A stretch of DNA of 62,931 nucleotides, filler included, from Nemertoderma westbladi (taxonomy: Eukaryota > Animalia > Xenacoelomorpha), in the NCBI GenBank assembly GCA_032718475.1. It is 3 parts of 3 records of this genome, joined end to end, with 100 filler letters (N's around TTAATTAATTAA, not from the genome) between each part and the next. Parts side by side here need not be neighbours in the genome. Positions count along the whole stretch, not along the records: positions 26,212 to 53,151 come from JAUCBJ010001098.1; 2 more parts are not named here. One strand, written 5' to 3'. The notes under the pieces were generated by a model, which worked only from the letters and a program-made list of their open reading frames with translations, did no database searches and was not told where the DNA came from. Of this stretch, positions 38,622 through 41,700 are shown piece after piece; the first letter of the stretch is position 1, and each line of letters begins with the position of its first letter. The translations under genes were made by a program, and so were the position numbers.

Positions 38622-38751
38622 TTACGCCCTCTTGCCTCTGATCCTATGGGCCAGTTTGGATATCCTTCGGCATTATGGTAACTCGATTGGCGTGGATAGC
38701 GCACAGATTCGTGTCCTCATACAATCCAATGAGATAAGCCTCAGATGCTTC
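38622..38751 (-). pseudogene. H3: Histone H3 C-terminal fragment (about residues 94-135) with a 1-nt frameshift
   Basis: Manual translation gives [32 protein letters not shown][+A][10 protein letters not shown]; canonical H3 is [42 protein letters not shown] (37/42 identical). Confidence 0.93.
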
Positions 38752-38752
38752 A

Positions 38753-41700
38753 CTACACCTCTAAAATATCGTAGAGGCCTTCAGTTAATGATTCGCTGGT
38801 TCCCAATATCGAAGCGGTGTTTCCGATCAGGATAGCTATCAGGATACGCTGTAGTAAGAAGCGATGAGAACGGGGCTCATGTGTGTTGGCGTGGAGCCTC
38901 ATCCCGACTTCTTTGAGGAAAGCGGCTGTTCTCGGACCGGGGCGGCCAAATGTCTCAAAGGCAACTGGTTCGAACTGATAGCCCCGATCAATTAACTCCT
39001 GATACTTCCTAATCTTTACGTTCTCCTGATCCTCGGCTATGCGACCACCAATGGTTTGGCTTATTCTGAGATGGCTGGGGGCCAGCGGGTCGACTACTGT
39101 GGCATCCCAGGTAAGTGTTCTTCCCTGGCTCCAAGGAACTAATGTTACACCATCTACCCGCTTCCCATCGCTCAAACAGAGACCTGGCGGTTCACGCAGG
39201 GATGGCACGCCACAGCTGTTTAGTGATCGCTTTACAATATCGTTCAACATGCTGTGGCGTGCTTGTCGACCTGCGCTCTTACTGCACGAGAGACCATGGA
39301 GACCGTCAGATTTAACGGGTTTACCGCACCGGAAACAGTTGTGGGGCTCCGTTACTTTACATCCCAGGCGGGTTGCTATTGAAATACGGAGCTGGGCATC
39401 TGTTAGTTTCAGGCCTAATGATGATACTGGGATCGCATCGATCCAACAGCCAGGGATTGGGTCGTCTAAAGCGTTTAGCCGGGCCAGATCATTACCGACA
39501 GCGGATTCGTGGAGGCAACCACGGTTGAACTCATGGATTGGAGCCATCCATGAACTCTGTTTGGAATCGGTTGGTGCGATGACGTCAGTGGTGGTGTAGG
39601 ACTGCCACAGTTCTAGTGCACTGCGAGAGGTGATGTCATTTGCGATGGGTTGGGGGTGAAGGGCTCCTGGGATATCTCGTACCGAGTAAACTTCTGGAGT
39701 GAAAAGGAGATTCGTGAGAGGTCTGCAAGCAGCCGTTGAAGCCAAATAGGCAGTCGGTGCGAGCTGCTTGGCAGAGCTCATCCCAAGGCCTCCCAATCGG
39801 GCAGGAAGTGAAGCCTGCTTCCATGCCTTGTCGTCGATTTGCGAGTTGGCGATGTCTTGGAGGGAGGATCGTTGGAGTTGGTCATATCGCTCTAGAGTCG
39901 CCGGGAATTCAAAGCATGGGGCGGAGCGCAAGAAGTACAGAAGGCGGGGTATGGCGAAGGAATTCTTCAGGAGAAAAAACGCGTGGTGACTATCGAGCGA
40001 TGATAACCGCCTACTCATGGTCTCCAGATCAGATACCTTTGCCTCAAGACATTTCACCATTGCGAATTTCCCTATCGGCGCGCCCAGCATCGTGAGGTTG
40101 GTGAGGTCGGGTACTAAGATTCCCTCGCAGATGCTGTTGAACTCTTTGTGGATGCGATGGCGCTCGTCTTCGGGTGTTTCTCCCAGAAAAAATAACTCGC
40201 ATTTCTTAGAGTTTAAAGTTAACCCGCACTTCCGTCCTTCCTCGATAACTGTCTGGAGATCCTGTAGCACGATCTCATATTTGTCTGCGAAGTTTCCATC
40301 ATCGAGAGACCAGACGTTAAATTTAGATTTCAGCGAGTGGTTGAGATCGTTCGTGACATCTCCAAACAATGCAGGACCTTCGGGGTCTCCCTGTTGCGGA
40401 CCTTCTTCGGAGAGGATCACCTTGTCTCCGTGTATTAGGAAACTATAATCACTATAGGCTGCCCGGGTATAATTATAAATCATCGGATAGCGCTGATGGA
40501 TTGTCTCTAGGAGAGAGTCTCTACGGAGCGTGTTAAAGGCATTACTGAAATCGACTTTCAGTAATACCGAGCAGCCATTATTATCTGCTGAGACATACGA
40601 ACGCGTTGCGTGTGCTGCTGCTTCGGCTCCGTTCTTGGTCCCGATCCCGAGCTGAGTGGAACCATATGAGGCTGACCTCTCTTCCTTCACGAGTGAGCCA
40701 ACGTATTTTGAGCACAGTCGTCGCCATGTCATACCAACAGCAATTGGCCGGATTCCTACACTCTTCACAAATGCGAAGAGGTTTGCTCCAAAGAAGAGTG
40801 GTCCGATACAGTCTGGGATCTTACCAGCAACAACAAGGTCGACGAACTTGCACATGGAGTTAAGAAGTCGGGATGCTGACTCTCCATTTTCGGCCCTTAT
40901 GAGATCTTTGATGATCTGGGGTCGGATACCATCTGGCCCACCTGCGCTACCACTCGGAAATGTGGTGATCAGTTTGCGTAGTACCTGTGGTGAACAAGGT
41001 GTTGCACTTGGCTGCACTGGGGGAGGGGGGTCGCGTCTGTCTGCTGGGCGAGGAGGGTGCTTAGCTTTCAGGGCCTGCAGCGTCTCGGGAGTGTTCGGTG
41101 CCATAGAGTCCGTCGATGATGCGAGTCTGATAGCACCTCTGACATCACCATCTTCTATCTTCTCCGCCACTGCAGTGGCAAGGCGGATCTCATCCCGATT
41201 ATTCTGATGTTGTGCCGATGTGGTATTCATTTCTGGGGGAGGCGTGATGAAGGGGGAACAAGTGCGGAATGCGGCGATGTTCTTGTTCACTTGTGAGGCT
41301 AGGGACAGTTGTTGACGCCTTCCTCCGCGCTTAGGAGCCGCTATACAGCGGTGACCTGCGATCAGAAGCTTAAACCAACTATCAACCAATGACGGGTCTG
41401 CGACTATGGCCATGAACAGATCGGATAAGAGGCTGGCGAGATTAGCTCTGGATGCCTTTGGGACATGTTTTAGTTGCTTAGCCCGATTGCCAATTAACAT
41501 TTTAACAAGAGTCTCGGGGTCTGTGATGGTGTTCGGCGATGTCACTGGATCATCAATAGCTTCGGCTGGTTGCTGGCTGTGTGAGGTTCCTCCTTGGATA
41601 GGTGGCAGTCGCGGGTCATCCGGTCTGGATTGACCAGAGCCGAAGCACCTATTATCGATGGGACCATGAACACGTAATGTGTCGTTTAAGTTGATACGGA

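What the first reader, a model, noticed from the sequence alone, without database searches (positions are those of the whole stretch)
38622..38755. Histone H3 C-terminal coding sequence begins 1 nt after the stop codon of an REL retrotransposon
Seen (absent from the ORF track): directly after ...YDILEV-TAG-T the same strand encodes H3 residues about 94-135 (37/42 identical, one extra A) to H3's own stop, then ~390 nt of AT-rich sequence, AATAAA and (TTCAA)3. I found no H3 5' half upstream and no histone stem-loop. The related relic at 59551 has no such tail. Established: REL-endonuclease elements (R2, R4, NeSL, CRE, Utopia) are often site-specific for multicopy genes such as rDNA, SL RNA and snRNA. 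Inference: this may be a histone-H3-targeting retrotransposon whose downstream target was carried along by 3' transduction, or a family that has adopted an H3 fragment as its 3' UTR. I know of no description of either, and this is the best candidate for a new system in the window.
Basis: partly seen in the sequence, partly recalled or inferred. Interest (0 to 1): 0.85.

Follow-up and report, generated by a model that had tools for sequence, protein, structure and literature searches.

The report
Retrotransposon wearing a histone gene's tail
A multi-copy jumping gene ends in a broken copy of the last part of a host histone H3 message, shared across copies at unrelated sites; it likely captured the final exon of an H3.3-type gene by splicing and likely uses it as its own 3' end, rather than targeting histone genes.

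Summary
In detail: a minus-strand Ulp1-RT-CCHC-REL element (CRE-like) stops at 38753-38755, and after one base H3 codons 94-135 follow (E 2e-15). It is not a one-off. In run X2 one contig at depth 1368 bridges the junction, and one at depth 1219 keeps the H3 frameshift; the ORF interior reads 255-421. Depth rises from 5' to 3' in three runs, as for 5'-truncated LINE copies that end in this tail. H3 targeting is not supported: no H3 5' half lies upstream, and a truncated copy in X5 has a non-H3 5' flank. The shared tail ends at 38551, so the '390 nt, AATAAA, (TTCAA)3' is probably flank. New point: residue 94 is the first codon of the last exon of zebrafish h3f3a (PMC3447937). X5 holds an abundant, apparently in-frame H3 with the same stem-loop-less 3' UTR, the likely donor. 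Best reading: read-through splicing fused an H3.3-type last exon one base behind the stop, and this became the family's 3' end. It resembles SVA-MAST2 exon capture but at the 3' end of an autonomous REL element. Ten paper searches found no such case; Repbase was not searchable.

The parts
38753..42573 (-). Single long ORF of a REL-type non-LTR retrotransposon (about 1273 aa when read through; this copy has a 1-nt frameshift near 42214)
   Evidence: ATG at 42573; translation; contigs of X1, X2 and X3 all carry one more base behind 42214 at full depth (table 4)
41948..42330 (-). Ulp1-like (C48) cysteine protease domain, split by the frameshift
   Evidence: Pfam PF02902 on both pieces, E 1.7e-5 and 1.9e-5; H, D and C of the triad read by eye
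40187..40753 (-). Reverse transcriptase core; this copy reads S at aa 644 where other copies read Y (YxDD motif)
   Evidence: Pfam RVT_1 E 6.7e-12; place 40308
38790..39337 (-). CCHC knuckle and restriction-like endonuclease region (bounds approximate)
   Evidence: Motifs read from alignment A1 with 12 homologues; no Pfam hit for this part
38752..38755 (-). Element stop codon plus the single spacer base: the junction
   Evidence: Sequence; bridged by X2 record 10 (38691-38817, depth 1368, 2 differences, no gap) and X5 record 30 (38687-38962, depth 49)
38622..38751 (-). Histone H3 codons 94-135 and stop, frameshifted by one extra base at 38655-38657; likely the coding part of the last exon of an H3.3-type gene
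   Evidence: frameshift kept in X2 record 9 (38570-38717, depth 1219, no gap); exon border from PMC3447937
38551..38621 (-). Likely H3-derived 3' UTR shared by the family and by the abundant H3 sequence in X5; no stem-loop
   Evidence: Depth 2334 (X2) and 20,498 (X5) at 38577; loose ends at 38551 in 4 of 4 runs; hairpin scan
42574..42822 (-). Likely 5' UTR; the 5' end near 42822 is inferred
   Evidence: Depth 171-387 up to 42738 in X1-X3; X1 record 8 runs 86 nt beyond 42738; another repeat ends at 42823; the match of those 86 nt to the window was not seen

Best explanation
This is a multi-copy, CRE-like REL retrotransposon whose copies share a frameshifted histone H3 piece (codons 94-135 plus at least 71 nt of downstream sequence) one base behind the stop, and that piece was likely captured from the last exon of a host H3.3-type gene by read-through splicing and likely now serves as the element's 3' end. 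Inferred steps: (1) an ancestral copy landed in sense orientation upstream of the last H3.3 exon, probably in an intron; (2) its transcript ran on and was spliced from a cryptic donor one base after the stop to the exon's acceptor at E94, which removed the native 3' UTR; (3) the chimeric RNA was reverse transcribed from its new 3' end and founded the present family; (4) the H3 piece, untranslated because it lies behind the stop, decayed (frameshift, amino-acid changes) while the ORF stayed intact; (5) later rounds of target-primed reverse transcription scattered full-length and many 5'-truncated copies at non-H3 sites. Shown: junction, shared frameshift, depth gradient, non-H3 5' flanks in two copies. 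Inferred: donor identity, splicing, present function of the tail. My odds: family-wide tail about 0.9; H3.3-type last exon about 0.75; splicing as the route about 0.6.
For:: X2 record 10 bridges the junction at depth 1368, close to the H3-only record 9 (1219) and 3-4 times the ORF interior (255-421). Record 9 has 2 differences and no gap in 148 nt, so the extra base and at least one of K115N/E133K are common to the family. Listed contig depth climbs towards the tail: X3 191-279 in the 5' half, 338, 450, 703, then about 1330-1410 summed on H3; X1 161-241, 345, 383, 737. X5 record 30 is a copy truncated at 38962 with an AT-rich non-H3 5' flank and also bridges the junction (a second study, P3). 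This copy differs from the long contigs by 1.05-1.09% in the ORF (39/3727, 38/3495, 40/3722) and 4/275 in the tail. Of 32 listed ORF differences 16 are synonymous against 31% expected (P 0.019), a hint that separate source lineages share the tail. The zebrafish h3f3a exon 3/intron morpholino reads A-L-Q then GT in reverse complement (PMC3447937), so the last exon starts at E94, where the homology starts here. A random break in 408 nt would hit one of two coding exon borders about 0.5-1.5% of the time (the count of two borders is recalled). X5 has depth 25,000-56,000 on the H3 part and 0 in 23 of 30 bins. Its contigs break at the extra-base run, one loose end lacks the extra base, and it shares the downstream 71 nt apart from a 3-nt insertion. 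That fits an abundant in-frame host message without a stem-loop. Canonical H3 genes are intronless with a stem-loop, H3.3.1 is spliced and polyadenylated (PMC5011920, passages).
Against: The host H3 gene was not seen, so its intron at 93/94 is borrowed from zebrafish; the host lineage is unknown (one search found no named homologue). Residues 94-135 cannot tell H3.3 from H3.2. The exon side of the supposed donor does not end in the usual AG (recalled consensus). X5 is labelled 'DNA?'; reading it as RNA is my inference. Bridging records are listed for 2 of 4 runs only; for X1 and X3 the 32 of 313 pieces shown stop 23 and 34 nt short of the junction. 24 of 147 loose ends and 40 of 85 variant rows were shown. 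Summed H3 depth in X1 (3794-5943, from 7-14 overlapping contigs) is far above the ORF end (737), so H3-only copies may add to it. Contig depth is no copy number. No target-site duplication longer than 10 AT-rich bases was found. The family's true 3' terminus, at least 23 nt beyond 38551, was not seen.
Confidence: 0.7

Rival explanations
1. Same family tail, DNA-level origin: a copy with almost no 3' UTR inserted at the very end of the H3.3 intron (or recombined there through the shared TAG of stop and acceptor), and plain 3' transduction carried the last exon along.
For: It also explains the exon-border junction and needs no cryptic donor; the stop TAG looks like an acceptor.
Against: It needs an insertion within a base or two of the acceptor, plus a separate origin for the spacer T; no intron remnant lies between stop and E94, and the ORF end aligns in length with relatives' C-termini.
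Confidence: 0.12
2. Same family tail, template-jump origin: the reverse transcriptase began on a broken H3 message and jumped onto the element RNA at its stop, once, and the chimera became the master copy.
For: Accounts for a shared, decayed, mRNA-like tail and for non-H3 flanks; template jumping by R2-type RTs is recalled.
Against: A mature message has no exon border, so a junction exactly at E94 would be a 0.5-1.5% coincidence if the host gene has that intron.
Confidence: 0.1
3. A site-specific element that cuts histone H3 genes between codons 93 and 94, this copy having carried its downstream target to a new site.
For: Four of five RLE clades are mostly target-specific (PMC4640811, passages); the junction is precise; most 5' junctions were not visible.
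Against: The dominant junction contig leads into frameshifted H3. No H3 5' half upstream. X5 record 30 has a non-H3 5' flank. None of the 24 loose ends shown reads as H3 codons up to 93 (by eye). No stem-loop follows, so the donor is not a typical multicopy array gene. 0 of 2 related loci have H3 after the stop, one of them in the same GDPEGP subclade.
Confidence: 0.05
4. One-off chimera, segmental duplication of one chimera, or assembly artefact.
For: The Ulp1 frameshift lies in a homopolymer and is private to this copy, so the window can hold errors; a 186-bp inverted repeat pair flanks the region.
Against: The junction is bridged in two studies, at depth 1368 in X2; depth rises along the element and drops at 38551, so flanks were not co-duplicated.
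Confidence: 0.03

Closest known systems
SVA subfamily fused to MAST2 sequence (SVA_F1; name recalled), exon trapping by SVA (PMC4982230, one passage and reference titles)
   Same: A host gene piece joined to a retrotransposon and fixed in a subfamily that went on spreading; splicing is the route named in the cited titles.
   Different: There the host piece is at the 5' end of a non-autonomous element. Here it sits at the 3' end of an autonomous REL element, in place of the native UTR, where reverse transcription starts.
L1 3' transduction and exon shuffling (reference titles in PMC4982230)
   Same: Read-through carries downstream host sequence to new sites.
   Different: Transductions are added behind an intact 3' UTR and mark single source loci (recalled). 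Here the host piece starts one base after the stop, at an exon border, and is the dominant 3' form.
Target-specific RLE elements: CRE, R2, R4, NeSL/Utopia (PMC4640811, passages)
   Same: One ORF with RT, CCHC and RLE; an N-terminal Ulp1 protease as in NeSL and Utopia-1_TSP.
   Different: Listed targets are rRNA genes, spliced-leader exons, tRNA and snRNA genes, transposons, microsatellites and telomeres; 'histone' does not occur in that paper. Here the adjoining gene piece travels with the element. The RT matches SLACS-named proteins at 41% but solved R2 proteins only at E 1e-13.
Gene-fragment capture by maize Helitrons, Pack-MULEs and Sireviruses (10.1101/777037, abstract)
   Same: An element carries exon sequence of an important host gene, so silencing RNAs could hit both.
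   Different: Plant DNA and LTR elements; that abstract found no rise in copy number for capturing elements. No silencing data exist here.

Membership tests
RLE-encoding non-LTR retrotransposons | One ORF with central RT and C-terminal CCHC plus restriction-like endonuclease | tested here: met
   Pfam RVT_1; CCHC and endonuclease motifs aligned with 12 homologues; single frame in X1-X3 contigs
RLE-encoding non-LTR retrotransposons | Spread by reverse transcription from the 3' end, leaving 5'-truncated copies | tested here: met
   Depth rises 5' to 3' in X1, X2, X3; truncated copy X5 record 30. Indirect: contig depth only.
CRE clade | RT phylogeny groups with CRE1/SLACS/CZAR/Cnl1 | tested here: inconclusive
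   No reference CRE protein was in hand. One of 120 listed homologues bears an automatic SLACS name at 41%; R2 is distant. In a 34-sequence tree the query falls in a 7-member GDPE(G/A)P group, support 1.0. Motif likeness to animal CRE elements is recalled.
NeSL/Utopia | N-terminal Ulp1-like protease (NeSL, Utopia-1_TSP) | tested here: met
   PF02902; but P0112 among the CRE-like homologues also has it, so it does not decide the clade
NeSL/Utopia | Insertion in spliced-leader or U2 snRNA genes | not tested
   Flanks were not scanned against Rfam; the 5' neighbour is another repeat
Histone-gene-targeting element (proposed) | H3 codons 1-93 upstream and intact H3 94-135 downstream of copies | tested here: not met
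   0 of 20 upstream frames hit a histone family; non-H3 5' flank in X5 record 30; frameshifted H3 in the dominant contig
H3.3-type donor gene | No 3' stem-loop | tested here: met
   No 6+4+6 hairpin in 122 nt after the stop; only the first 71 nt are shared with the family
H3.3-type donor gene | Intron between codons 93 and 94 in the host gene | not testable with these tools
   No genome held; shown only for zebrafish h3f3a
H3.3-type donor gene | S31 and AAIG at 87-90 | not testable with these tools
   These residues lie outside the captured piece

The most novel reading that the evidence does not exclude
An autonomous REL retrotransposon replaced its whole 3' UTR with the last exon of the essential, highly expressed H3.3 gene and prospered because of it: the borrowed end primes reverse transcription, makes the host's H3.3 message a trans template, and shields the element because silencing RNAs against its tail would also hit H3.3.
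Probability: 0.15. Interest if true: 0.8.

Novelty: new variant of a known kind. Interest (0 to 1): 0.52.

Why it matters
In R2, the best-studied REL element, the 3' UTR is where the protein binds and positions the RNA for target-primed reverse transcription (PMC13580325, passage). A related element that kept spreading after its 3' UTR was swapped for a host exon would show that template choice in this branch can be loose or lies elsewhere in the RNA. That is directly testable and matters for RNA-templated gene writing. It predicts H3.3 retrocopies made in trans. It also offers a natural test, in a likely animal genome, of whether carrying part of an essential gene blunts small-RNA silencing. 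It does not add histone genes to the list of insertion targets.

Tried and rejected
No whole genome is held, so copies could not be tabulated. No RNA holder listed. Depth below 38505 and above 42738 was not measured. Viral contigs gave no relatives. The exact 31-nt junction had 0 matches in metagenome contigs. None of 151 fetched proteins holds an H3-like stretch apart from none expected in the query (phmmer E<=1 gave no hit). My idea that the H3 frameshift was an assembly error was rejected (X2 record 9); it holds only as a possibility for the Ulp1 frameshift. My early argument that all five H3 changes predate this copy was cut back: I101 and H128 are private to it. (TTCAA)3 as the element's tail is rejected as probable flank: in X2 the bin 38505-38646 is fully explained by contigs from 38551 upward (77x1219 + about 49x1115 equals 142x1046; hand arithmetic, the second contig's span inferred). 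No convincing target-site duplication. Placing the host lineage through the DC-STAMP ORF failed. Cluster look-up gave no useful names. Searches for invertebrate H3.3 intron positions gave nothing; PMC5011920 gives exon counts only. Fell et al. 2025, a large survey of RLE elements and flanks, is not held and is known to me only through a passage in PMC13580325; it and Repbase could hold a prior record. Earlier-scan look-ups by words, sequence and place found no report of this feature.

Full report
Observation. On the minus strand a long frame ends ...YDILEV-TAG at 38755-38753. One T follows, then H3 codons 94-135 and TAA (38751-38622), with one extra base in the run at 38655-38657. Residues 94-125 match solved H3.2/H3.3 chains at 29 of 32 positions, E 2e-15. 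No histone family appears in 20 minus-strand frames upstream, the window holds no second match to the piece, and no stem-loop follows.

The element. Pfam finds a Ulp1 protease split by a frameshift and an RT. CCHC and endonuclease motifs align with 12 homologues. 278 proteins match, the best at 44-47%; one bears an automatic SLACS name, while solved R2 proteins are distant. I call it CRE-like; no reference CRE protein was available, so membership is not shown. It falls in a 7-member group with a GDPE(G/A)P motif. An ATG lies at 42573.

Is the tail shared? No genome is held. Three runs from two studies hold about 0.6 of the sampled words, and X5, of the same species label from a third study, holds 0.04; X1 may be the window's own source. 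I laid X1, X2, X3 and X5 on 38505-42738 (contigs only, so depth is no copy number). In X2 a 127-nt contig bridges the junction at depth 1368 with 2 differences and no gap. The adjoining 148-nt contig crosses the extra base without a gap at depth 1219. The ORF interior reads 255-421. So the usual continuation of the ORF is this H3 piece, frameshift included. Depth climbs from 5' to 3' in X1, X2 and X3, the pattern of 5'-truncated LINE copies whose 3' end is the H3 piece. X5 record 30 is such a truncated copy: it bridges the junction and has an AT-rich, non-H3 5' flank at 38962. For X1 and X3 no bridging record is among the 32 of 313 pieces shown. If the low-depth contigs (20-90) stand for single loci, there are roughly ten long copies and several tens of 3' ends; this is a rough inference.

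State of this copy. It differs from the long contigs by about 1.1% in the ORF and 4 of 275 in the tail. The Ulp1 frameshift, the S in the YxDD motif, and H3 I101 and H128 are private to it. Sixteen of 32 listed ORF differences are synonymous against 31% expected (P 0.019; 45 rows were not shown), a hint that more than one active lineage carries the tail.

Where the tail ends. Contigs of 4 of 4 runs leave the window at 38551 and continue alike for 12-23 nt. In X2 the bin depth leaves no room for high cover on 38505-38550 (hand arithmetic). The 390 AT-rich bases, AATAAA and (TTCAA)3 are therefore probably flank. The 5' end is probably near 42822: an X1 contig runs 86 nt past 42738 and another repeat ends at 42823. 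No clear target-site duplication was found.

The donor. X5 has depth 25,000-56,000 on the H3 part and none in 23 of 30 bins. Its contigs break at the extra-base run, one loose end lacks the extra base, and it shares the 71 nt behind the H3 stop apart from a 3-nt insertion. I infer an RNA library showing an abundant in-frame host H3 message with the same 3' UTR; the tool's label is 'DNA?'. Canonical histone genes are intronless with a 3' stem-loop, whereas Hydractinia H3.3.1 is spliced and polyadenylated (PMC5011920, passages). The morpholino against the exon 3/intron border of zebrafish h3f3a (PMC3447937, passages) reads A-L-Q then GT in reverse complement: the last exon starts at E94, where the homology starts here. 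Chance for a random break is about 0.5-1.5%. That the host gene has this intron is inferred, not shown.

Mechanism. Most likely a copy sat upstream of the last H3.3 exon, its transcript was spliced from a cryptic donor one base after the stop to the E94 acceptor, and the chimeric RNA founded the family. The untranslated H3 piece then decayed while the ORF was kept. Rivals with the same outcome are an insertion at the intron's end with plain 3' transduction (0.12) and a template jump from a broken message (0.10). H3 targeting (0.05) predicts intact H3 downstream and codons 1-93 upstream; both fail in what could be seen, and 0 of 2 related loci from other sources, one in the same subclade, have H3 after the stop. 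A one-off or artefact (0.03) is contradicted.

Comparison and novelty. It works like SVA-MAST2 exon capture and L1 3' transduction (PMC4982230, one passage and reference titles), but the host exon replaces the 3' UTR of an autonomous REL element. In R2 that UTR is the protein's binding site for priming (PMC13580325, passages). The target list for RLE clades in PMC4640811 (passages) has no histone gene. Six searches aimed at a histone-targeting or histone-tailed LINE (listings only) showed none; Repbase and Fell et al. 2025 could not be seen. Two unchecked notes of this scan describe LINEs in another genome that borrow histone gene starts; that is the other end of the gene and was not tested here. 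The idea that capturing an important gene restrains silencing comes from maize (10.1101/777037, abstract), where the benefit to elements was unclear; here it is untested.

Verdict. Real, family-wide, and not a new targeting system: a new variant of host-exon capture by a retrotransposon, with a testable bearing on 3'-end recognition. Interest 0.52.

Noticed in passing
window 37509-37694 and 43080-43265: Two 186-bp copies, 95% alike, in inverted orientation on either side of the element; probably two insertions of a small dispersed repeat.
   Followed up: no
window 38717, run X5 (table 7): A contig leaves the H3 piece into 98 nt of AT-rich sequence that ends like a splice acceptor at the E105/D106 border: a truncated copy, or an intron of a host H3 gene. 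If an intron, its absence from the tail would show capture at the RNA level.
   Followed up: no
window 38669, run X5 (table 7): Two contigs continue as a divergent H3 paralogue (R for K122, H for Q125, by hand translation).
   Followed up: no
window 39071-39169, 40607-40654, 40914-40962: Loose ends that read as coding sequence of other, related CRE-like families in the same organism; their 3' ends were not seen.
   Followed up: partly
window 42694-42738, run X2: A second repeat (depth 162) shares a diverged form of this part of the 5' region and then departs.
   Followed up: no
window 59551-60866: Decayed relative of the element (26-37% identity) with an AT-rich, non-H3 3' flank.
   Followed up: partly
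proteins P0001-P0006, P0032; locus L001: A subclade with E in place of the usual L in the RT motif (GDPE.P; 7 of 121 proteins; support 1.0). The full-length members printed (3 shown) have Cys/His-rich N-termini instead of Ulp1.
   Followed up: partly
window 43948-45090: Intronless 380-aa frame with TUTase / Cid1 poly(A) polymerase domains, 1.1 kb upstream on the same strand; possible retrocopy.
   Followed up: no
window 14162-16531: Intronless 789-aa DC-STAMP-domain frame; no homologue scored.
   Followed up: partly
window 28298-31453: DUF1759 gag-like frame of a BEL/Pao-type element, without pol in frame.
   Followed up: no
window 9755-12567: Three overlapping frames that read by eye as an APE-type LINE ORF2; not scanned.
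   Followed up: no
window 17068-26111, 35996-37474, 45910-47285: A 30-bp array with internal inversions (306 copies), a 43-bp array (34.5 copies) and a 490-bp inverted pair.
   Followed up: no
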